Positions 387 through 61,967 of a stretch of DNA of 64,000 nucleotides are shown one piece after another (position 1 is the stretch's first letter; every line of letters starts with the position of its first letter). The DNA comes from the human T2T-CHM13v2.0 reference genome, Homo sapiens. The notes under the pieces were generated by a model, which searched no databases, had not been told where the DNA came from, and saw only the letters and a program-made list of their open reading frames with translations. Location: the NCBI RefSeq assembly GCF_009914755.1, contig NC_060935.1; one strand, written 5' to 3'. Made by a program: the position numbers and the translations under genes.

Positions 387-2761
387 AGTTAACTATTACT
401 AATATATCTTCTGTTCTGTGAAAGAGGTAAGACTGAACAACTTATTTAACTTCTCTGAGGTGATCTTTAAAATGGGTTTAAAACACCTACACAGGATTGT
501 TTGCTCATTCCTTCATTCAGCAGTCATTCATACCAATCAATGTCAACTGTGTTGTATACACAAAGACATTCATATATGATACAATCTTTGCCCTTGATTA
601 GCAGACAGACAGTGAGATGAGATGTCTCAAGAATTTGATACGGGACCTGGAACAGAGCCAGTGCTTGAGAAATCTTAGTTGCCTTCCCCTTATTCATGGA
701 ATGGGTAAGGCACAGCTCTGAGAACAACCATCCTCATATCCTAGGTTTCTTCACTTCACCCAAAGAGACCATTTATCCTTCAGTAGAAATAATCCCAGAA
801 CACTTCCTCCAGATTCAAAGAAAACACCATGCCAAGGGATTTGGCAGATAAAGGAGGAGATAAAGGCTTTCCACATTTCTATGAATGAATGCAATGCTTT
901 GTCTTTAAGGAAAATACAGCAAGAGGCCTCAATGTTTCCTCTTAAGCCCCAGTTTGCATGGCAACCAGACATTCCACACACTTTGATCATAAAACGGAAG
1001 CATCAACTCAAATGTGAAAAGACACTTAGCAACTTAAAATCTATTATAGTTTCATAAATTGGAGTCTTTGAATATTCCCAACTATTAACATTTTTCAGAG
1101 ATTTAAGTCTTAAATAAACTTAAAGCAATTCAAGAGCTTCACATAATGGTACATCTCACTGGTCTATAATAAAGGTATCTGAAGAATCACAAAATTTACT
1201 TTTCTAGAAATGGCAACTGCTTAATGATTGTATTGCAAGGCAATTTACCCACAGCCTCCTGGAAAATTGATTTTCCTCTCTCTGTCTTTTCATTTGTAAG
1301 CACAAGGGCATAAAGAGCCAAATATTTGCCACCTTGAAACTATATACTTTCCATTATTTTCTGTCTATAAAAACTATAAAATACATTGCGGACCTTCCAG
1401 CTCTTCTGCGAGATTTCTCAGATATTTTCAATGTAAGACAAAGACTAAAACAAATCCAAAAAGATGCATATTTGTTTTCTCTAGGCTATGAAGTATAACC
1501 CAACTGATTCCGTTCTTCAAACTTGAAATTGTGTACTTGACTAAGAAAAAAACAAAAAACAATTCACCAACTGCATTTGCCAAGCCTCATGGTTTATAGA
1601 GCTGTGGGGAGTCAGGAAGATGAGCCCAGCAAGACACAGGACATCTAGTGATAAGAGAGGTGAATAAAGAGAAGAAAAACAATCATTTTCTACAAAGTAG
1701 AAATTGAAACGCCTGCAAATCACATATGTACATGACAATCTAAATATGACCATACACAGAAACTCAGATTTCCAAGAATTTTTCCTGGTATGCTTCTTGG
1801 CAAAAATGAATCATAGGAGAAATCTTTTTTTTTTTTAACCAAAAAACAATCCCTTGTTCATTTAACAAATACCTACTGAGTGCCTATCATGTACCCAGAA
1901 CTGTGGTTATAGGTGTAAGACTGACAGACACAGTCTCTACTGGTCTAGGAGCTTACAGCCGCCCAGTGGGGAACACATGAGTCAGCAGGCATCTCTGGAA
2001 TAGTGTGGCAAGTGACATGATGGAGGTAACCCAAAAGCTATGAGAGAGAGTACCTGGAAGGACACCTAACCCAGATTTGGGCTTCCTTGGATATAGATAT
2101 CTTCAAATTGAGGTCTAGAAAATAACAAGTTAGCTAAAGGAAGATACTACATGTTTTGAGGATGACGGGGGAGGTCCCATGTGAAATGGAACAGCATGTA
2201 CAAAAGCCTGGAGCAACAGTGATCATAGAGAGTTCAAAGTATTGAAGATAGTTCCGTTTAGCTGGACTTTCCCACACTAGGAAGGATAGGATTGTGGATA
2301 CAATTCTAATGCTGCCACCAACACTGGCTTACATCCTTGGAAAGTGAAGGGGAGAGATGGGGGGAGGACACAGCCACACTGAGAGTCATGCTTTGGGCAG
2401 CCTTGCCTGCAGGGGGCCACTGAACCATACGTATTATACCCATGTAAAATTGTCCCAGTCTAAAAGAACATATGTAGGGGTGTTTCAAGGTCCTTTGAGA
2501 GGAGCTACTGATAAGTTTGCACCTATTCAAATACTTATCTTTTTAAGCATACTAGGTTGGCAGGAGGGGCATCCACTGAAAATTGGACTGTGAGGAAAGA
2601 GCATGGCCTGTGGAGTCAGAAACACTGAGTTCTACCCCAGGTTCAGGCCCTGTGGGTTGTCACACCTGACACATCCCATTCACTCACTCACTCATTCATG
2701 TGTTCAAATATTGAGAGGCCCTTCTATGTACCATAAACTGGCAGGAGCAGGTGACAGAAGG

Positions 2762-3134
2762 TGATATGGTTCGGCTGTGTCCCCACCCAAAATCTCATCT
2801 TGAATTATAATCCCCATAATCCCTATGTGTCAAAGGCAGGGCCAGGTGGAGGTAATTAGATCATGGGAGTGGTTTCACCCATGCTGTTCTCATGGTAGTG
2901 AGTCTCACAAGACCTGATGGTTTTATACGCGTCTGGCATTTCCCTTGCTTGCACTCACTTGGTCCTGAAACCCTATGAAGAAGATGCCTGCTTCTCCTTT
3001 GCTTTCCACCATGATTGTAAGTTTCCTGAGGCTTCCCCAGCCATGCGGAATTGTGAGTCAATTAAACCTCTTTCCTTTATAAATTACCCAGTCTCAGGTA
3101 TTTCTTCATAGCAGTGTGAGAACAGACTAATACA
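2762..3134 (+). mobile_element. THE1 (MaLR) solo LTR
   Basis: TGATATGGTT..GCTGTGTCCCCACCC start, ATTAAA poly(A) signal, ...CTAATACA end; 5-bp TSD GAAGG. Confidence 0.92.
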
Positions 3135-3139
3135 GAAGG

Positions 3140-4130
3140 ATAAAGCAAAGTCCTCACTCTTAAGGAACTCAAGAGTCTAAGGAGGGAGGGGCAAGCAAAT
3201 ATGCAGAAGATTGCATCACCCTGTATTAAATACGATGCTGAAAAGAAGCATTGAATGCCATGAGAGTCCACAGAGGAAGGGGCAAAAGCAGGCTGTCTTG
3301 TGATGAAGGTGCCTGAGCAGAGCCCGAGATGATGAGCAGCCTGGCGGAGAAGCAGGGAAAGGTCATCCCCAGCAGATGGAGCTGCAGATGAAAAGGAACA
3401 GAGCAGTGGTGGCTCATTCAGAGAGCAGGGAGTAGCTCAGTGTGGCTGGCCTGAAGGGTGAGGATGGGATGGGGGGTGAGAAGTTTCTGTTGTAACCCAT
3501 GTCAGATGATGAAGAGCCTCGAATGACCATGTTAAAGTATTTGCATGAGGTGGCAGAGGAAGAGGGGTCCAGGATAGCTCCAGGCAGGGTGACTGGAGGG
3601 AAGGGGTGCCATTAGCCAGCATAGAAAAGCAGATTGAATGAGGAGCTAAAACAGGTAAGTGTAAGGTGCCTGTGAGAAATTCAAGTGCAATACCATTGGA
3701 AGTATGTAGATATGTAATTCTACAGGTCGGGACTGTATAGAGATTTAAGAGTACCCACATATAGATGATCACTAAAGCCATGTTGGGGGTGAGATTGCCC
3801 AGAGAGAGAGTGTGTACCGTAAGAAGAGAAGAGGTCCAACCAAGAACAGAGCCCCAGAAAGCACTTAAAGGGCAGAAGGCGGAAATGGAACCTATCAAAG
3901 GGACCAACAAGGAACTAGTTGAGACGCAGGAGGAAAGTCCTGAGAATCAAGAAGACATGACTTTCAAGAAGGCCAGGGGGATTGAGTACTTTGGTCAAAG
4001 GCAGCTGAAGGGTCAGGTAGGATACAGATGGACCTTACCCACTGGATTGGATAATTTAGAAGTTGCTGCTGAATATGGCCAGAGTGGATTCCAGGGAACG
4101 GTGGTGGAGCCAGGCAGCAGGGAGGGATAA
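3140..4130 (-). mobile_element. Degenerate L2 fragments (similar pieces at about 1850-2270)
   Basis: Typical L2 motifs (ATTTAACAAATACCTACTGAGTGCC, GGAGCTTACAG, GTTGGGGGTGAGATTGCCCAGAGAGAG); highly diverged. Confidence 0.55.
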
Positions 4131-50059: not shown

Positions 50060-50759
50060 ACAACATGAAAAACATGATAAATGAAAGAAAAAATTAATAA
50101 ATTGGACTTTATTAAAAGTAAAAACTTCTGCTTTGCCAAAGTCACTGCTAAGAGAATAAAAACACAAGTCACAAACTGGGAAAAGTATTTGCAAAACACG
50201 CAACCGATAAAGAACTTTTGTCCAAAGTATACAAAGAACTCTTACAACTCAACAATAAGAAAACAAACAACCCAACTAAAAAGTGGGCAAAAGATATGAA
50301 CATCTCATAAGAAAAAATATGCAGATGGAAAATAAGCATATGAAAAGATGCTCAGCACCATCCATTATTAGGAAAATGTAAATAAAAATAACAATGGAAT
50401 ATATTACATACCTATTAGGATGGCTGAATTCAAAATATTGACCATGCCAATTGATGGTGAGGATGTAGAGTAACAGGAACACTCATTCATTGCTGGTAGG
50501 AATGCAAAATGTAACACCCATTTTGGAAGACAGTTTGACAGTTTCTTACAAAGCTGAACATAGTCTTACCACATGATTCAGCACTTATGCCCCTAGGTAT
50601 CTACCAAACAGATTTGAAAATTTATATTCACACAAAAAATAGCAAGTGAATATTTATAGAAAATTTATTTATAAATGTCAAAAACTGGAAACAATCACTA
50701 TGTCCCTGAATAAAGGTAAATGGATAAACAAACTGTGGTACATTTATACAACAGAATAC
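50060..50759 (+). mobile_element. Old L1M 3' portion, split by the HERV-H and continuing from 60572
   Basis: KINKLDFIK.KNFC ORF2 motif; ...CAACAGAATAC|TATTC... continuity across the HERV-H. Confidence 0.82.
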
Positions 50760-51160
50760 TGTCAGGCCTCTGAGCCCAAGCTAAGCCATCATATCCCCTG
50801 TGACCTGCATGTACACATCCAGATGGCCAGTTCCTGCCTTAACTGATGACATTCCACCACAAAAGAAATGAAAATGGCCTGTTCCTGCCTTAACTGATGG
50901 CATTATCTTGTGAAATTCCTTCTCCTGGCTCATCCTGGCTCAAAAGCTCCCCTACTGAGCACCTTGTGACCCCCATTCCTGCCCGCCAGAGAACAACCCC
51001 CCTTTTTCCTTTACCTACCCAAATCCTATAAAACGGTCCCACCCTATCTCCCTTTGCTGACTCTCTTTTCGGACTCAACCTGCCTGCACCCAGGTGATTA
51101 AAAGCTTTATTGCTCACACAAAGCCTGCTTGGTGGTCTCTTCAAATGGACGTGAGTAAAA
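50760..51160 (+). promoter_or_regulatory. 5' LTR7 (HERV-H promoter)
   Basis: LTR7 sequence with CCTATAAAA TATA box at about 51025 and ATTAAA. Confidence 0.92.
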
Positions 51161-51162
51161 TT

Positions 51163-51180
51163 TGGTGCCATGACTCAGAT
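51163..51180 (+). other. Primer-binding site complementary to tRNA-His
   Basis: TGGTGCCATGACTCAGAT versus canonical TGGTGCCGTGACTCGGAT (two CpG-type changes). Confidence 0.92.
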
Positions 51181-54100
51181 CGGGGGACCTCCCTTGGGAG
51201 ATCAATCCCCTGTCCTCCTGCTCTTTGCTCCATGAGAAAGATCCACCTACGACCTCAGGTCCTCAGACCGACCAGCCCAAGAAACATCTCACCAATTTCA
51301 AATCCGGTAAGTCACCTCTTTTTACTCTCTTCTCCAATCTCCTTCACTATCCCTCAACCTCTTTCTCCTTTCAATCTTGGCACCACACTTCAATCTCTCC
51401 CTTCTCTTAATTTCAATTCCTTTCATTTTCTGGTAGAGACAAAGGAGACACGTTTTATCCATGGACCCAAAACTCCGGCGCCAGTCACAAACTGGGAAGG
51501 CAGCCTTCCCTTGGTGTTTAATCATTGCAGGGATGCCTCTCTGATTATTCACCCTCGTTTCAGAGGTGTCAGACCACGCAGGGACGCCGCCTGCCTTGGT
51601 CCTTCACCCTTAGTGGCAAGTCTGCTTTTCTGGGGGAAAGGCAAGTACCCCAACCCCTTCTCTCCGTGTATCTACCCCTTCTCTGCTTTTCTGGGGGAGG
51701 GACAAGAAACCCCCAACCCCTTCTCCTTCACCCTAAGTGGCAAGTCCCACTTCTCTAGAGGATGGACAAGTACCCCAACCTCATATCTCTGCTCCCCAAT
51801 CCCTCATTTCTGCACCCCTACCTCATGTCTCTGCGCCCTGATCCCTTATTTCTGCACCCTGACCTCATATCTCTGCACCCCAACCCCTTTCCTGCTTTTC
51901 TGGAGGGTAAGAACCCCCAAACCCCTTCCCTCCATATCTCTACTCTCTCTTTTCTCTAGGCTTGCTTCCTTCACTATAGGGAAACTTCCACCCTCCGTTC
52001 CTCCTTCTTCTCCCTTAGCCTGTGTCTCAAAAACTTAAAACCTCTTCAACTCACACCTGACCTAAAACCTAAATGCCTTATTTTCTTCTGCAACACTGCT
52101 TGGCCCCAATGCAAACTTGGCAATGGCTCTGAATGGCCAGAAAACAGCACTTTTGATTTCTCCATCCTACAAGACCTAAATAATTTTTGTCGAAAAATAG
52201 GCAAATGGTCTGAAGTGCCTTATGTCCAGGCATTTTTCACAATTCGTTCCCTCCCTAGTCTCTGTTCCCAATGTGATTCCTCCCGAATCCTCCTTCTTTC
52301 CCTCCCACCTGTCCCCTCAGTCCCAACCCCAAGCATCCATAAGTCTTTCTACTCTTCCTTTTCTACAGACCCATCTGACCTCTCCCCTCCTCCCCAGGCT
52401 GCGCCTCACCAGGCCGAGCTAGGTCCCAATTCTTCCTCAGCCTCTGCTCCTCCACCCTGTAATCTTTTTATCACCTCTCCTCCTCACACCCAATCCAGTT
52501 TACAGTTTCATTCCGTGAGCAGCCCTCCCCCACCTGCCCAGCAATTTCCTCTTAAAAAGGTGGCTGAAGCTAAAGGCATAGTCAAGGTTAATGCTCCTTT
52601 TTCTTTATCAGACCTCTCCCAAATCAGTGAGTGTTTAGGCTCTTTCATCAAATATGAAAAACCCAGCCCAGTTCATGGCTCGTTCGTCAGCAACCCTGAG
52701 ATGCTTTACAGCTCTAGACCCTAAAAGGTCAAAAGGCCGTCTTATTCTCAATATACATTTTATTACCCAATCTGCTCCCAACATTAAATAAAACTCCAAA
52801 AATTAAATTCCATCCCTCAAACCCCACAACAGGACTTAATTAACCTCACCTTCAGGTGTACAATAATAAAATAGAGGCAGCCAAGTAACAACATATTTCT
52901 GAGTTGCAATTCCTTTCCTCCACTGTAAGACAAACCCCAACCAGATCTCCAGCACACAAGAACTCCAAACACCTGAACCGCAGCTGCCAGGAGTTCCTCC
53001 AGAACCTCCTCCCCCAGGAGCTTGCTACAAGTGCCAGAAATCTGGCCACTGGGCCAAGGAATGCCCATAGCCCAGGATTCCTCCTAAGCCATCTCCCATG
53101 TGTGCAGGACCCCACTGAAAATAAGACTGTTCAACTCACCTGGCAGCCGCTTCCAAAGCCCCTCGAACTCTGGCCCAAGGCTCTCTGACTGACTCCTTCC
53201 CAGATCTTCTTGGCTTAGCAGCTGAAGACTGACACTGCCCGATTGCCTCAGAAGCCTACAGGACCATCACAGATGCTCTAAGTAACTCTCACAGTAGAAA
53301 GTAAGTCCATCCCCTTCTTAATCAATACAGAGGCTACTCACTCCACATTACCTTCTTTTCAAGGGCCTGTTTCCCTTGCTTCCATAACTGTTGTGCATAT
53401 TGATGGCCAGGCTTCTAAACCTCTTAAAACTCCCCAATTCTGGTGCCAACTTAGACAATACTCTTTTAAGCATTCCTTTTTAGTTATCCCCACCTGCCCA
53501 GTTCCCTTATTAGGACCAGACACTGTAACTAAATTATCTGCTTCCCTGACTATTCCTAGGCTACAGCCACACCTCATTGCCACCTTTTCCCCCAGTTCAA
53601 AGCCTCCTTCACATCCTCCCCTTGTATCTCCCCACCTTAACCCACAAGTATAAGACACCTCTACTCCCTCCTTAGTGACCGATCATGCACCCCTTACCAT
53701 CCCATTAAAACCTAATCACGCTTACCTCGCTCAATGCCAATATCCCATCCCATAGCACGCTTTAAAAAGATTAAAGCCTGTTATCACTCGCCTGTTACAG
53801 CATGGCCTTTTAAAGCCTATAAATGCTCCTTACCATTCCCCCATTTTACCTGTCCTGAAACCAGACAAGGCTTACAGGTTAGTTCAGGATCTGAGCCTTA
53901 TCAACCAAATTGTTTTGCCTCTCCACCCCATGGTGCCAAACCCATATACTCTCCTATCCTCAGTACCTCCCTTTATAACCCATTATTCTGTTCTAGATCT
54001 AAAACATGCTTTCTTTACTATTCCTTTGCACCCTTCATCCCAGCCTCTCTTCACTTTCACTTAGACTGACCCTGACACCCATTAGGCTCAGCAAATTACC

Positions 54101-56046
54101 TAGGCTGTACTGCCGCAAGGCTTCACAGACAGCCCCTATTACTTCAGTCAAGCCCAAATTTCATCCTCATCTGTTACCTATCTCGGCATAATTCTCATAA
54201 AAACACACGTGCTCTCCCTGCTGATCATGTCCAATTAATCTCCCAAACCTCAATCCCTTACAAAACAACAACTCCTTTCCTTCCTAGGCATGGTTAGTGT
54301 GGTCAGAATTCTTACACAAGAGCCAGGACCGCACCCTGTAGCCTTTCTGTCCAAACAACTTGACCTCACTCTTTTAGCCTAGCCCTCATGTCTGCGTGCA
54401 GCGGCTGCCACTGCTTTAATACTTTTAGAGGCCCTTAAAATCACAAACTGCTCAACTCATTCTCTGCATTTCTCATAACTTTCGAAATCTATTTTCTTTC
54501 TCATACCTGACGCGTATACTTTCTGCTCCCCGGCTCCTTCAGCTGTACTCATTCTTTGTTAAGTCCCACAATTACCATTGTTCCTGGCCCGGACTTCAAT
54601 CCGGCCTCCCACATTATTCCTGATACCACACCTGACCCCCATGACTGTATCTCTCTGATCCATCTGACATTCACCCCATTTCCCCATGTTTCCTTCTTCC
54701 CTATTCCTCGCCCTGATCATGCTTGATTTATTGATGGCAGTTCCACCAGGCCTAATCGCCACACACCAGCAAAGGCAGGCTATGCTATAGTACAAGCCAC
54801 TAGCCCGCCTCTTAGAACCTCTCATTTCCTTTCCATCGTGGAAATCTATCCTCAAGGAAATAACTTCTCAGTGTTCCATCTGCTGTTCTACTACTCCTCA
54901 GGGATTATTCAGGACCCCTCCCTTCCCTACACATCAAGCTCGAGGATTTGCCCCCACCCACGACTGGCAAATTAGCTTTACTCAACAAGCCCCGAGTCAG
55001 ATAACTAAAATACCTCTTAGTCTAGGTAGACAGTTTCACTGGATAGGTAGAGGCCTTTCCTACAGGGTCTGAGAAGGCCACCACAGTCATTTCTTCCCTT
55101 CTATCAGACATAATTCCTCAGTTTAGCGTTCCCACCTCTATACAGTCTGATAACAGACCAGCCTTTATTACTCAAATCAGCCAAGCAGTTTTTCAGGCTC
55201 TTAGTATTCAGTGAAACCTTTATATCCCTTACAGTCCTCCGTCTTCAAGAAAAGTAGAACGGACTAAAGGTCTTTTAAAAACACACCTCACCAAGCTCAG
55301 CCACCAACTTAAAAAGGACGGGACAATACTTTTACCACTTTTCCTTCTCAGAAGTCAGACCTGTCCTCAGAATGCTACAAGGTACAGCCCATTTGAGCTC
55401 CTGTATAGATGCTCCTTTTTATTAGGCCCCAGTCTCATTCCAGACACCAGACCAACTTAGACTGTGCCCCCAAAAAAACTTGTCATCCCTACTATCTTCT
55501 GTCTAGTCATACTCCTATTCACCATTCTCAACTACTCATACATGCCCTGCTCTTGTTTACACTGCCGGTTTACACTGTTTTTCCAAGCCATCACAGCTGA
55601 TATCTCCTGGTGCTATCCCCAAACTGCCACTCTAAACTCTTGAAGTAAATAAATAATCTTTGCTGGCAGGACTATGCTGAATCTCCTTAGGCACTCTCTA
55701 ATCAGATGTCCTCGGTCCTCCCAACTCTTAGACCTTTTATACCTGTTTTTCTCCTTCTCTTATTCCATTTAGTTTTTCAATTCATACAAAACCGTATCCA
55801 GGCCATCACTAATAATTCTAAATGACGAATGTTTCTTCTAACAGTCCCACAATATCACCCCTTACCACAGAATCTTCCTTCAGCTTAATCTCTCCAATTC
55901 TAGGTTCCCACGCCGCCCCTAATCCCGCTCAAAGCAGCCCTGAGAAACATCGCCCATTATCTCTCCATACCACCCCCAAAAATTTTCACCGTCCCAACAC
56001 TTTACCACTATTTCGTTTTATTTTTCTTATTAATATAAGACAGGAA

Positions 56047-56452
56047 TGTCAGGCTTCTGAGCCCAAGTTAAGCCATCATATCCCCTGTGACCTGCATGTA
56101 GACCACCAGATGGCCTATTCCTGCCTTAACTGATGACATTCCACCACAAAAGAAGTGAAAATGGCCTGTTCCTGCCTTAACCGATGACATTGTCTTGTGA
56201 AATTCCTTCTCCTGGCTCATCCTGGCTCAAAAACTCCCCCACTGAGTACCTTGTGACCCCCACTCTGCCCGCCAGAGAACAACTCCCCTTTGACTGTAAT
56301 TTTCCTTTATCTACCCAAATCCTATAAAATGGCCCTACCCTTATCTCCCTTTGCTGACTCTCTCTTTGGACTCAGCCCGCCTGCATCCAGGTGACTAAAA
56401 GCTTTATTGCTCACACAAAGCCTGTGGTCTCTTCACAGGGACACACATGAAA
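56047..56452 (+). mobile_element. Internal (middle) LTR7
   Basis: Preceded by PPT-like AAGACAGGAA; complete LTR ending CATGAAA; no PBS after it. Confidence 0.94.
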
Positions 56453-59400
56453 GTGACTAGCCCTCCCCCACCTGCCCAGCAATTTACTCTTAAAAAGGTG
56501 GCTGAAGCTAAAGGCATAGTCAAGGTTAATGCTCCTTTTTCTTTATCCCAAATCAGATAGCGTTTAGGCTCTTTTTCATCAAATATAAAAAACCCAGCCC
56601 AGTTCATGGCTCGTTTGGCAGCAACCCTGAGACGCTTTACAGCCCTGGACCCTAAAAGGTCAAAAGGCCGTCTTATTCTCAATATACATTTTATTACCCA
56701 ATCTGCTCCCGACATTAAATAAAACTCCAAAAATTAAATTCCAGCCCTCAAACCCCACAACAGGACTTAATTCACCTCACCTTTAAGGTGTACAATAATA
56801 GAGTAGAGGCAGCCAAGTAGCAACATATTTTGGAGTTGCAATTCCTTGCCTCCACTGTGAGACAAACCCCAGCCACGTCTCCAGCACACAAGAACTTCCA
56901 AACGCCTAAACTGCAGTGGCCAGGCATTCCTCCAGAACCGCCTCCCCCAGGAGCTTGCTACAAGTGCCAGAAATCTGGCCACCAGGCCAAGGAATGCCCG
57001 CAGCCCAGGATTCCTCCTAAGCTGTGTCCCATCTGTGTGGGACCCTACTGGAAATCAGACTGTTCAGCTCACCTGGCAGCCACTCCCAGAGCCCCTGGAA
57101 CTCTGGCCCAAGGCTCTCTGACTGACCCCTTCCCAGATGTTCTCGGCTTAGCAGCTGAAGACTGATGCTGTCCGATCACCTTGGAAGCCCAGTAGACCAT
57201 CACAGACACCGAGCTTTAGGTAACTCTCACAGTGGAGGGTAGTCCGTCCCGTTCTTAATCATTATGGAGGATACACACTCCACATTACCTTCTTTTCAAG
57301 GGTCTGTTTCCCTTGCTTCCATAACTGTTGTGGGTACTGACAGGCTTCTAAACCTCTTAAAACTCCCCAACTCTGGTGCCAATTTAGACAATACTCTTTT
57401 AAGAGCTCTTTTTTTAGTTATCCCCACCTGCCCAGTTCCCTTATTAGGCCAAGACACTTTAAATTATCTGCTTCCCTGACTATCCCTGGACTACAGCTAC
57501 ATCTCATTGCCGCCCTTCTTCCCAATCCAAAGCCTCCTTTGCGTCCACCTCTTATATCCCCCCACCTTAATCCACAAGTATAAGATACCTCTACTCCCTC
57601 CTTGGCAACCGATCATGCACCCCTTACCATCTCAGTAAAACCTAATCACCTTTACCCTGCTCAATGCCAATATCCCATCCTGCAGCACTCTTTAAAAAGG
57701 TTAAAGCCTGTTATCACTTGCCTGCTACAGCATGGCCTTTTAAAGCCTATAAACTCTCCTTACAATTCCCCCATTTTACCTGTCCTAGAACCAGACAAGG
57801 CTTACAGGTTAGTTCAGGATCTGAGCCTTATCAACCAAATTGTTTTGCCTATCCACCCCATGGTGCCAAACCCATATACTCTCCTATCCTCAATACCTCC
57901 CTCCACAACCCATTATTCTGTTCTGGATCTCAATCCCTTTGCACCCTTCATCCCAGCCTCTCTTCGCTTTCACTTAGACTGACGCTGACACCCAACAGGC
58001 TCAGCAAATTACCTAGGCTGTACTGCTGCAAGGCTTCACAGACAGCCCCCATTACTTCAGTCAAGCCCAAATTTCATCCTCATCTGTTATCTATCTCGGC
58101 ATAATTCTCATAAAAACACACGTGCTCTCCCTTCTCATCATGTCTGACTAATCTCCCAAACCTCAATCCCTTACAAAACAACAGCTCCTTTCCTTCCTGG
58201 GCATGGTTAGATACTTTCGCCTTTAGATACCTAGTTTTGCCATCCTAACAAAACCATTATATAAACTCACAAAAGGAAACCTAGCTGACCCCATAGATCC
58301 TAAATCCTTTCCCCACTCCTCTTTCCATTCCTTGAAGACAGCTTTAAAGACTGCCCCCACCCTAGCTCTCCCTGACTCATCCCAACCCTTTTCATTACAC
58401 ACAGCCGAAGTGCAGGGCAGTGCAGTCGGAATTCTTACACAAGGACTGGGATTGCATCCTGTAGCCTTTTTGTCCAAACAACTTGACCTTACTATTTTAG
58501 GCTGGCCATCATGTCTCCCTGCAGCGGCTGCTGTCGCTCTAATACTTTTAGAGGCCCTTAAAATCACAAACTATGCTCAACTCACTCTCTACATCTCTCA
58601 TAATTTCCAAAATCTATTTTCTTCCTCACACTGATGCATATACCTTCTGCTCCCCGGCTCCTTCAGCTGTACTCACTCTTTGTTGAGTCTCCCACAATTA
58701 CCATTGTTCCTGGCCCGGACTTCAATCTGGCCTCCCACATTATTCCTGTTACCACACCTGACTCTCATGACTGCATCTCTCTGATCCACCTGATGTTCAT
58801 CCCATTTCCCCACATTTCCTTCTTCCCTGTTTCTCACCCTGATCACACTTGGTTTATTGATGGCAGTTCCACCAGGCCTAATCGCCACACACCAGCAAAG
58901 GCAGGCTATGCTATAGTACAAGCCACTAGCCCGCCTCTTAGAACCTCTCATTTCCTTTCCATCATGGAAATCCATCCTCAAGGAAATAACTTCTCAGTGT
59001 TCCATCTGCTATTCTACTACTCCTCAGGGATTATTCAGGACCCCTCCCTTCCCTACACATCAAGCTCCAGGATTAGCCCCCACCAAGGACTGGCAAATTA
59101 GCTTTACTCAACGTGCCCCAAGTCAGATAACTAAAATACCTCTTAGTGTAGGTAGACACTTTCACTGGATGGGTAGAGGCCTTTCCTGCAGGATCTGAGA
59201 AGGCCACCACAGTCATTTCTTCCCTTCTATCAGACATAATTCCTCAGTTTAGCCTTCCCACCTCTATACAGTCTGATAACAGACCAGCCTTTATTAGTCA
59301 AATCAGCCAAGCAGTTTTTCAGGCTCTTGGTATTCAGTGAAACCTTTATATCCCTTACAGTCCTCAGTCTTCAGGAAAGGTAGAACGGACTAATGGTCTT

Positions 59401-60173
59401 TTAAAAACACACCTCACCAAGCTCAGCCACCAACTTAAAAAGGACTGGACAATACTTTTACCTCTTTCTTTTCTCAGAATTCAGGCCTGTCCTTGGAATG
59501 CTACAGGGTACAGCCCATTTGAGCTCCTGTATGGACACTACTTTTTATTAAGCCACAGTCCCATTGCAGACACCAGACCAACTTAGACTGTGCCCCAAAA
59601 AACTTGTCATCCCTACTATCTTCTGTCTCATCATACTCGTATTCACCATTCTCAACTACTCATACATGCCCTGCTCTTGTTTACACTGCTGGTTTACACT
59701 GTTTCTCCAAGCCATCACAGCTGATATCTCCTGGTGCTATCCCCAAACTGCCACTCTAAACTCTTGAAGTAAATAAATAATCTTTGCTGGCAGGACTATG
59801 CTGAATCTCTTTAGGCACTCTCTAATTAGATGTCCTAGGTCCTCCCAATTCTTAGACCTTTAATACCTGTTTTTCTCCTTCTCTTATTCCATTTAGTTTT
59901 TCAATTCATACAAAACTGTATCCAGGCCATCACCAATAAATCTAAATCACAAATGTTTCTTCTAACAGTCCCACAATATCACCCCTTACCACAAAATCTT
60001 CCTTCAGCTTAATCTCTCCCACTCTAGGTTCCCACGCCGCCCCTAATCCCGCTCAAAGCAGCCCTGAGAAACATCGCCCATTATCTCTCCATACCATCCC
60101 CCATAATTTTCACTGTCCCAACACTTTACCACTATTTCGTTTTATTTTTCTTATTAATATAAGAAGACAGGAA

Positions 60174-60571
60174 TGTCAGGCCTCTGAGCTCAAGCTAAGC
60201 CATCATATCCCCTGTGACCTGCACGTACACATCCAGATGGTTCCTGCCTTAACTGATGACATTCCACCACAAAAGATATGAAAATGGCCTGTTCCTGCCT
60301 TAACTGATGGCATTATCTTGTGAAATTCCTTCTCCTGGCTCATCCTGGCTCAAAAGCTCCCCTACTGAGCACTTTGTGACCCCCATTCCTGCCCGCCAGA
60401 AAACAACCCCCCTTTTTCCTTTACCTACCCAAATCCTATAAAACGGCCCCACCCCTATCTCCCTTCGCTGACTCTCTTTTCAGATTCAGCCTGCCTGCAC
60501 CCAGGTGATTAAAAGCCTTATTGCTCACACAAAGCCTGTTTGGTGGTCTCTTCACACAGACACGCATGAAA
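60174..60571 (+). mobile_element. 3' LTR7
   Basis: PPT AAGAAGACAGGAA, then TGTCAGG...CATGAAA, then the TSD. Confidence 0.95.
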
Positions 60572-61967
60572 AATACTATTCAATAAAAAGAAAAAAAAGG
60601 AATGAGACGTCAACCCACGATGACAGATGAATCTCAAATGCATATTGTTAAGTGAAGGAAGCCAGTTTAACAAAGCTATATACTGTATTATTGTAACTAC
60701 ATAACATTCTGGAAAAGACAAAACTATAGTGATAGTAAATAGATCAGCGGTTGCTAGGGGTTCAGAGTGGAGGAGTAAGGTGAGTGTTGAATAGATAAAG
60801 CACAGGAATATCTTTTAGGGTAGTGAAACTATTTTTGTGATACTATAATTGTGAACATAAGACACTATGCATTTGTCAAAGCCCATGAAGCTTTACAAAA
60901 CAAACGCTAATGTATACAAATTTAAAACATTTTAGGAGGTCAAGAGATCCCTGGATGGATCTCGGGATAGAATGTAGATAGAACAAAAGAATCTAACTGT
61001 ATTATAATTATTTAAAACAATATCACTGAAGGGGATAGATGATAAAGTTGCTGAATTTGGAAATTATAACTTTACAAAAGTAATTTTGGAAATGGAACCT
61101 GTAAGACTAAAGGCAAAAAGAACTGCACATATGCATAGTACTCTAGTTATAAAGTTGTTTCTCACAGGCGTATGCGTTAACAATTCTGCTATTGCTGTAG
61201 ATGTATATTGGAAGTGAACAATTAAGTAAATGGATGGCAGATGATGTGAGCCAGGTTTCTCACTGTCAGAGTGGGAGTTTAGAGGAGGTTAGAATGATCC
61301 ATTGCCAATGGTGTAGAGTTGAAGACGTCAATATGAGCTCATAATTAACTTAATATATATATTGATGGTTACTTATGCATACACAGAATATATACACATA
61401 TATTTCCTTGCTCTACCAGCTGAGAGGTCCTAGAAGTAATGACACCCCAGTAGCAATGTACACATTCAGCACCCAGATCTTGATTTCAAAAGTCATTTTC
61501 CAACAAAAGAAACCAGTCTTCTTGGGGAAATAGCTGATTTTAGGACAAGAGCAGGAAATATACAAGATAAGCCTGGAGCATCCCATAGCTCAAGAAAGTA
61601 CTGAAAAACTCCCCAAAACAAAAAACAAAACCCACATTGATGGAAGCATGTCAACAGATACAGGAGCTAACTAAAGGAGCTCCTCACAGCCAAAACTGGA
61701 ACAAAATTAGCAAAATTAAGTAGTATTGAATTATAACCCACAGATATATATCCACGAATCTATACTGATATAAAAAATGATTGAATAAATAAATGGGAGA
61801 AGAGACAAATCTGCTGTGTAGTAGAATTCCAAATAATTTATGTAGCTACTTCACCTTCAAGAAGGTGGAGCATAACTCCACTCCTTAAGTGTAGGCTGCA
61901 CATAGTGACTTCCTTCCAAAGAGTACAGTATGAAAACTGGAGTTGGTAGGGAGAGTAACTATACAAT

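What the first reader, a model, noticed from the sequence alone, without database searches (positions are those of the whole stretch)
50755..60576. Three-LTR composite HERV-H inside a single TSD: probable provirus-in-provirus insertion followed by recombination
Seen: LTR-PBS-gag-pol-LTR-(partial gag)-pol-LTR with one AATAC TSD around the whole 9.8 kb. The middle LTR ends at its normal terminus (CATGAAA, 56452) and joins directly to mid-gag (GTGACTAGCCCTCCCCC, equivalent to about 52515), with no PBS or leader. The outer LTRs share U3 states (TGATGGCATTATC; CCCCCTTTTTCC) that differ from the middle LTR (CGATGACATTGTC; TTTGACTGTAATTTTCC). The second pol keeps a segment of about 215 bp (around 58210-58425) that is deleted in the first. 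Inference: these are two different HERV-H genomes, best explained by a second provirus integrating into gag of the first, then homologous deletion of its 5' LTR region. Simple tandem duplication does not fit.
Basis: partly seen in the sequence, partly recalled or inferred. Interest (0 to 1): 0.7.

Follow-up and report, generated by a model that had tools for sequence, protein, structure and literature searches.

The report
Retrovirus relic inserted inside its cousin
A 9.8-kb ancient retrovirus relic on human chromosome 11 is built from two different HERV-H copies and has three end repeats; one copy likely inserted into the other and part was then likely lost by recombination, and a similar fusion with a different joint on chromosome 15 suggests this happened more than once.

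Summary
In detail: LTR–PBS–internal–LTR|mid-gag–pol–LTR inside one AATAC duplication. The middle LTR ends at its exact terminus, with no PBS and no microhomology to gag. The two internal units differ by 7.8% and belong to two lineages. An intact chr3 provirus with outer-type U3 matches unit 2 at 63 of 68 marker sites; a chr14 provirus chosen only for likeness to the middle LTR matches unit 1 at 57 of 68. That rejects simple local duplication and argues against self-integration. The junction occurs once in the genome, so there is no sign the composite was copied. Best model (~0.72): provirus B integrated into gag of resident provirus A, then the duplicated 5' parts recombined out. New here: an independent composite on chr15 (own TSD, different junction, chimeric 5' LTR), and a HERV-H solo LTR nested in a HERV-H leader on chr11:63.4 Mb with its TSD. 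An excess of same-strand self-nesting is only suggestive (2 of 132 other loci, 0.10–0.18 expected; 0 of 56 in the lineage-independent part). The 5' LTR terminus type differs from the 3' one and remains unexplained. A new variant of known nested/three-LTR structures; moderate interest.

The parts
50755..50759 (+). Left target-site duplication (AATAC)
50760..51160 (+). 5' LTR, lineage A in U3 (sister of the 3' LTR); its terminus type differs from the other two LTRs
51163..51180 (+). Primer-binding site, the only one in the element (tRNA-His type by family; not compared with a tRNA here)
   Evidence: family definition in PMC6629862 passages
51161..56046 (+). Internal unit 1 (leader, gag, pro, pol, all broken by stops); lineage B from at least about 52130 on; lacks the 210-bp pol segment after 54295
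52035..52130 (+). Interval where unit 1 switches to the lineage-B haplotype; the latest possible place of the inferred A/B crossover (may instead be an older viral mosaic)
   Evidence: max-chi2 permutation p <0.001 to 0.03 in 6 of 6 reference pairs
56047..56452 (+). Middle LTR, lineage B (inferred 3' LTR of the invading provirus); overlaps RefSeq enhancer 55863-56414 (hub annotation)
56452..56453 (+). Junction of the exact LTR terminus to gag (equivalent to 52515): no PBS, no TT dinucleotide, no microhomology; single copy in the genome
56453..60173 (+). Internal unit 2 (3' gag with zinc knuckle, pro, pol; broken by stops), lineage A end to end
58209..58418 (+). 210-bp pol segment kept in unit 2 and absent from unit 1; an old family-wide polymorphism (kept in 29 of the first 100 listed copies); overlaps an RNase H-like domain match
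60174..60571 (+). 3' LTR, lineage A
60572..60576 (+). Right target-site duplication (AATAC)

Best explanation
The element is two different HERV-H genomes inside one target-site duplication; provirus B likely integrated, same strand, into the gag gene of resident provirus A, and homologous recombination between their duplicated 5' parts likely removed B's 5' LTR and the left copy of B's own TSD. Shown: anatomy, exact-terminus junction, two lineages, unit 2 = A from just after the junction to the end, 3' part of unit 1 plus middle LTR = B, outer U3s = A. Inferred: integrase made the junction, the order A then B, and the deletion, with a crossover between U5 of the 5' LTR and about 52130. The element is a fossil with broken reading frames; any present role would be as LTR enhancers or as a substrate for further LTR recombination (untested).
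For: Junction at the exact, TT-less LTR end with zero microhomology. 42 non-CpG sites where the unit 1 and unit 2 alleles both occur in at least 2 other proviruses. Intact provirus L081 has the outer-LTR U3 states and unit-2 alleles at 63 of 68 sites. The chr14 provirus picked by middle-LTR likeness has unit-1 alleles at 42 of 49 (L079) and 15 of 19 (L024) sites. Unit 2 lacks the B alleles at 52519 and 52548 and B's 9-bp insertion. Independent twin on chr15 (L077): TSD GGCAC, junction at the equivalent of 52744, units 7.4% apart, 5' LTR sharing U3 markers with the 3' LTR but the R-region polyA-signal type with the middle LTR, as a crossover between A's and B's 5' LTRs would give. L082: a HERV-H solo LTR in a HERV-H leader with TSD AAAAC (plus one extra A), the other expected outcome of such nesting. 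In both composites the host has the more complete pol, matching the older class in PMC6629862 passages.
Against: The 5' LTR terminus type differs from the 3' and middle ones; neither an all-A 5' LTR nor an A/B chimera explains it without a further event. The outer LTRs are not each other's nearest neighbours (3.7% apart at non-CpG sites, against 0.3-2.4% for 5 of 5 ordinary pairs, which were chosen for likeness to my queries). The LTR tree is star-like: outer LTRs fall in one weak 5-member clade at 93/85 support. HERV-H is heavily mosaic (PMC8912925 passages; L051 switches from unit-1 to unit-2 alleles near 55.2 kb), so the 52.0-52.1 kb switch may predate integration. L081 was chosen as the best hit to unit 2. 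B's TSD cannot be seen. The chr15 junction has 1-3 bases of ambiguity. At chr3:38.08 Mb a 5' LTR also joins an internal position exactly without a PBS, so such junctions may arise by other routes.
Confidence: 0.72

Rival explanations
1. One reverse-transcription event in a particle holding two RNAs: A's plus-strand strong-stop DNA jumps to B's PBS, runs through B to its U5 end, then jumps end-to-end onto a truncated A strand; the heterodimer integrates once (a truncated form of the Sabot and Schulman template-switch complex).
For: Gives one TSD, sister outer LTRs, a different middle LTR and unit 1 = B in one step; precedent in plants (PMC1950507, whole text).
Against: Predicts identical outer LTRs and a TT kept at the junction. 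The chr11 junction has no TT and the outer termini differ; the chr15 outer LTRs differ in R-region lineage type; the unit 1 leader is not B-like upstream of about 52035.
Confidence: 0.12
2. The nesting happened elsewhere, and a read-through RNA from B's 5' LTR to A's 3' LTR was retrotransposed here.
For: Explains one TSD and A-type U3 in both outer LTRs; R/U5 carry too few lineage markers at chr11 to exclude it.
Against: No second copy of the junction: 1 exact match, none at 1-2 mismatches, 5 at 3 mismatches that I did not inspect one by one; no full-span BLAST hit among 40 scored of 857 candidates. The chr15 outer LTRs differ in R. Long direct repeats are usually deleted during reverse transcription (recalled).
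Confidence: 0.08
3. An autointegration circle (U5 end joined to its own gag) recombined into resident provirus A by a single crossover.
For: Gives the exact-terminus junction with no deletion step; L051 looks like unit 1 upstream and like unit 2 plus outer LTRs downstream of about 55.2 kb.
Against: Predicts the start of unit 2 is lineage B. It is not (52519, 52548, 9-bp indel), and single natural proviruses match each unit end to end.
Confidence: 0.03
4. Local tandem duplication by unequal LTR crossover, then loss of PBS and leader and gene conversion from other copies; or a mis-assembly.
For: Shared-LTR tandems are common in HML-2 (PMC13648407 passages) and plants (PMC11899658 abstract and discussion). 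A few rare alleles are shared by both units (5 sites at 0 of n references, 2 of them CpG-like).
Against: 7.8% divergence with lineage alleles along the whole length, the pre-existing 210-bp polymorphism, a deletion edge exactly at the LTR end at two loci, and all repeats 5-9% apart with an intact TSD.
Confidence: 0.05

Closest known systems
HERV-H (RTVL-H; LTR7/HERVH-int), with RGH2-like (more intact pol) and RTVLH2-like (more pol deletions) subgroups
   Same: LTR, leader, gag and pol match many genomic copies at 85-96%; 5-bp TSD; shared pol deletion polymorphism.
   Different: Three LTRs, two lineages, one PBS.
Nested LTR-retroelement insertions and same-family nesting ('TE nepotism', Levy et al., PMC2836564 passages)
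   Same: A younger element inside an older one of the same family, same strand.
   Different: Here the invader's 5' LTR and left TSD are gone, so the nest looks like a tandem; no HERV-H self-nesting appeared in the passages I saw.
Template-switch three-LTR complexes of Triticeae, rice and maize (Sabot and Schulman 2007, PMC1950507)
   Same: Three LTRs, one TSD, similar outer LTRs, two parent elements.
   Different: Those have two complete cores; here the second core lacks PBS, leader and 5' gag and starts at an integrase-type end, and the chr15 twin has a chimeric 5' LTR.
Shared-LTR tandem arrays (HML-2, PMC13648407; plant tandems, PMC11899658)
   Same: LTR-internal-LTR-internal-LTR order within one site.
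   Different: Those repeat whole units of one provirus; here the units are two lineages and one is 5'-truncated.

Membership tests
HERV-H | LTR and internal sequence homologous to the multi-copy family | tested here: met
85-96% matches to many genomic copies; 1056 PPT-LTR junctions at up to 1 mismatch, 24 for the reversed control.
HERV-H | PBS complementary to tRNA-His | not tested
   PBS-like stretch at 51163-51180 shared with other copies; not compared with a tRNA.
HERV-H | Retroviral gag, pro and pol domains | tested here: met
   4 of 12 natural stop-free stretches hit Pfam: RVP, RVT_1 (below its curated cut-off), zf-CCHC, RT_RNaseH_2.
Nested insertion followed by recombination | Integrase-type end of the invader joined to host sequence | tested here: met
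   Exact terminus, no TT, no microhomology.
Nested insertion followed by recombination | Host lineage resumes right after the junction and matches the outer LTRs | tested here: met
Nested insertion followed by recombination | Invader's own TSD on both sides | not testable with these tools
   The left copy would lie in the deleted part; present in the related solo-LTR case L082.
Nested insertion followed by recombination | A/B crossover 5' of the insertion point | tested here: inconclusive
   Switch at 52035-52130 could be an older mosaic; clear in the chr15 5' LTR.
Template-switch complex (Sabot and Schulman) | Flanking TSD and similar outer LTRs | tested here: met
Template-switch complex (Sabot and Schulman) | Two complete cores | tested here: not met
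   Second core lacks PBS and about 1.35 kb.
Shared-LTR tandem by unequal crossover | Units are each other's closest relatives and complete | tested here: not met
Autointegration circle | Sequence after the junction comes from the same genome as the middle LTR | tested here: not met

The most novel reading that the evidence does not exclude
HERV-H preferentially integrated into the first 1-1.6 kb of its own active proviruses, as a promoter-seeking gammaretrovirus would if HERV-H LTRs were the strongest promoters in the cells where it spread. That left a hidden class of self-nested proviruses, disguised as three-LTR tandems or internal solo LTRs. All three same-strand cases seen here fall within 703 bp of the 5' internal region, and both composites have the more deleted pol as invader and the more complete pol as host.
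Probability: 0.3. Interest if true: 0.7.

Novelty: new variant of a known kind. Interest (0 to 1): 0.47.

Why it matters
It shows that some apparent HERV tandems are fossil virus-in-virus insertions. These give a direct order of activity between HERV-H sublineages and break LTR-pair dating and locus counts. If self-nesting is truly enriched, it records the integration preference of an extinct gammaretrovirus-like family and ties it to HERV-H's own embryonic promoter activity. A three-LTR locus can also collapse to several alleles, so it is a candidate structural polymorphism.

Tried and rejected
LTR maximum-likelihood tree (62 rows, 8 duplicate or doubtful rows dropped): star-like, 4 of 59 inner branches well supported, not decisive. 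Mean distances to 'A-like' and 'B-like' groups were uninformative. No genome-wide census of three-LTR structures was obtained; pattern listings show only the first 100 of 1056 and 100 of 435 matches. Two searches with distant haplotypes (57 loci, 56 new, covering 2-3 kb of the internal region) showed no further same-strand nest. chr3:38.08 Mb first looked like a third composite but has no TSD, sister 5' and middle LTRs and the same junction twice, so it was not counted. chr1:104.64 Mb has a partly deleted shared LTR, and chr11:118.74 Mb is simply 5'-truncated. Full-length reference panels were not obtained: only L081 and the chr15 composite were read whole, so the lineage painting is thin (10-24 references per region, none at 54.1-54.5 kb). 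Literature: 9 searches (listings only) showed no paper on this locus or on HERV-H self-nesting; subscription papers are mostly not held and Jern et al. 2005 was not available. Supplement look-ups found no row for the locus, but I used coordinates from recalled assembly offsets and the Gemmell table row shown had no coordinate column, so this says little.

Full report
1. Observation. The sequence shows AATAC at 50755-50759 and 60572-60576, three LTRs (50760-51160, 56047-56452, 60174-60571), one PBS after the first LTR, and a second internal unit that begins at the equivalent of 52515 directly after the middle LTR's last base. The outer LTRs differ by 5.0%, and each differs from the middle one by 8.9%. 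The internal units differ by 7.8% over 3,494 aligned bases; unit 2 keeps 210 bp (58209-58418) that unit 1 lacks. Of 12 natural stop-free stretches, 4 match retroviral Pfam domains; the frames are broken.

2. The junction. Solo LTRs and 3' LTRs among my loci end at the same base before their TSDs, so the middle LTR is complete to its terminus. The TT that lies between U5 and the PBS is absent, and gag shares no bases with the LTR end. From established retroviral biology (recalled), that is the form of an integrase-processed end. The junction is single-copy: 1 exact match, 0 at 1-2 mismatches, 5 at 3 mismatches that I did not inspect individually, and no other full-span hit among 40 scored of 857 BLAST candidates.

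3. Two genomes. At 42 non-CpG sites both the unit 1 and the unit 2 allele occur in at least two other proviruses (47 partial reference loci). The 210-bp segment is a family-wide polymorphism, kept in 29 of the first 100 listed of 435 motif matches. The intact provirus L081 (chr3:170.2 Mb, picked as best hit to unit 2) has unit-2 alleles at 63 of 68 marker sites and the U3 states of the outer LTRs. A chr14 provirus picked only for likeness to the middle LTR has unit-1 alleles at 42 of 49 (L079) and 15 of 19 (L024) sites. So the outer U3s and unit 2 are lineage A; the middle LTR and the 3' part of unit 1 are lineage B. Unit 2 lacks B's alleles at 52519 and 52548 and B's 9-bp insertion near 52610, so the DNA that received the LTR end was not B itself, against an autointegration circle. 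Counter-evidence: L051 switches from unit-1 to unit-2 alleles near 55.2 kb, the LTR tree is unresolved, and the family is known to be mosaic (PMC8912925, passages).

4. Where the deletion crossed over. Unit 1 takes on a haplotype shared with L018, L036 and the chr15 first unit at 52035-52130 (max-chi2 p from below 0.001 to 0.03 in 6 of 6 reference pairs). Upstream it is closest to L029, L040 and L022; the first two carry unit-2 alleles just past the junction position. This fits a crossover there, but an older viral mosaic is possible, so I bracket the crossover between U5 of the 5' LTR and about 52130. The 5' LTR's terminus type matches L081 and the chr15 LTRs, while the 3' and middle LTRs share the other type. 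Every model needs one more event for that, such as a heteroduplex at reverse transcription or local gene conversion.

5. Independent cases. A search with unit 1 exposed chr15:92.51-92.52 Mb. L077 has three LTRs, its own TSD (GGCAC), a middle LTR joined to gag at the equivalent of 52744 (1-3 bases ambiguous), units 7.4% apart, and again the deleted pol first and the retained pol second. Its 5' LTR shares two U3 markers with its 3' LTR but shares the R-region polyA-signal type with its middle LTR. One round of reverse transcription makes both outer LTRs alike, so this points to recombination after integration. On chr11:63.44 Mb (L082) a HERV-H solo LTR sits, same strand, in a HERV-H leader at the equivalent of 52037-52041, with TSD AAAAC plus one extra A. 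That is the other expected outcome of nesting and shows directly that HERV-H integrated into HERV-H. A fourth candidate on chr3:38.08 Mb is different (no TSD; 5' and middle LTRs 3.1% apart and both joined to leader position 84). I did not count it, but it warns that PBS-less junctions may have other origins.

6. Is self-nesting enriched? Among 133 distinct loci listed (index included), 2 of the 132 others are same-strand nests. Random insertion of an assumed 2,000-3,500 elements predicts 0.10-0.18 (P 0.005-0.015; family size guided by PMC6629862 passages). Both came from the 77 loci found with queries from the composites; the 56 new loci from distant queries gave none, though those queries covered only 2-3 kb. 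Genome-wide, three cases against 0.8-1.5 expected is not significant (P 0.05-0.18). The three insertion points lie within 703 of 4,886 bases (P about 0.06). Two same-strand pairs within 11 kb among 100 listed copies (0.09 expected) and several close neighbours suggest local clustering. MLV's preference for promoters and enhancers through BET proteins (PMC6974304, passages) offers a mechanism by analogy. Levy et al. report same-family nesting for MaLR and a sense bias for ERVL in ERVL, but appear to list HERVH among under-represented inserters (PMC2836564, passages; column meaning inferred). The excess is a lead, not a result.

7. Mechanism and age. Most likely order: A integrates (TSD AATAC); B integrates in A's gag at 52515; recombination between the A and B 5' regions removes B's 5' LTR and left TSD. 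Confidence 0.72. Outer-LTR divergence of about 5% gives roughly 13-26 million years at recalled neutral rates of 1-2 per billion per year, so ape orthologues should be informative. No ape genome was available.

8. Known and new. Nested LTR elements, shared-LTR tandems (PMC13648407, passages; PMC11899658, abstract and discussion) and template-switch three-LTR complexes (PMC1950507, whole text) are described. HERV-H LTR recombination alleles are described too (PMC6298018, passages and supplement search; PMC12350158, passages). This structure fails the defining tests for tandems and for complete-core template-switch complexes, and meets those for a nest that lost its 5' part. Nine literature searches (listings) showed no account of this locus or of HERV-H self-nesting; subscription papers and bioRxiv supplements were not visible. 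Verdict: real, a new variant of a known kind, interest 0.47; up to 0.7 if self-targeting holds (probability 0.3).

Noticed in passing
L077:162-9790 (G000:C15:92514761-92524389): Second three-LTR HERV-H composite, TSD GGCAC, junction at the equivalent of window 52744, chimeric 5' LTR; its two units share haplotypes with the matching chr11 units over 52.9-54.2 kb (25 of 31 and 26 of 32 sites).
   Followed up: yes
L082:195-610 (G000:C11:63443044-63443459): HERV-H solo LTR nested same strand in a HERV-H leader, TSD AAAAC plus one extra A.
   Followed up: yes
L074:979-1893 (G000:C12:29147088-29148002): Two HERV-H LTRs in inverted orientation: LTR, PBS and about 100 bp of leader joined to an inverted LTR with a 9-base PBS stub, with GGTAT on both sides, so both integrated ends appear to be U3 ends; flanks look like L1 (recalled).
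   Followed up: partly
L088, L090, L091 (G000:C3:38074200-38088000, minus strand): Three-LTR element of another LTR subtype: 5' and middle LTRs are sisters and both join leader position about 84 with no PBS; 3' LTR 9-10% apart; no TSD; an SVA-like insert (recalled) in the first unit. Unexplained.
   Followed up: partly
L084, L087 (G000:C1:104639504 and 104644959): Two PPT-LTR junctions 5,455 bp apart; the shared LTR is cut after about 140 bases and joined to the leader.
   Followed up: partly
L085 (C13:47275751-47276152); C3:170214269-170215056; L062:227-627; C1:54780224 and 54790896; C23:136569507-136580607: HERV-H elements unusually close to other HERV-H elements (113 bp to 11 kb), suggesting local clustering of insertions.
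   Followed up: partly
window 51144; L031, L074, L077:162-575: A C-to-A change near the U5 end was seen in 4 LTRs, all of them 5' LTRs, and in no 3' or solo LTR among the roughly 60 compared.
   Followed up: no
window 55863-56414: The RefSeq enhancer given in the hub annotation overlaps the middle LTR rather than an outer one.
   Followed up: no
G000:C11:94648635-94654346 (L026, L033): An ordinary HERV-H provirus about 290 kb away has LTRs among the best matches to the middle LTR, but its internal region is only 89% identical to unit 1, so it is not an obvious donor.
   Followed up: partly
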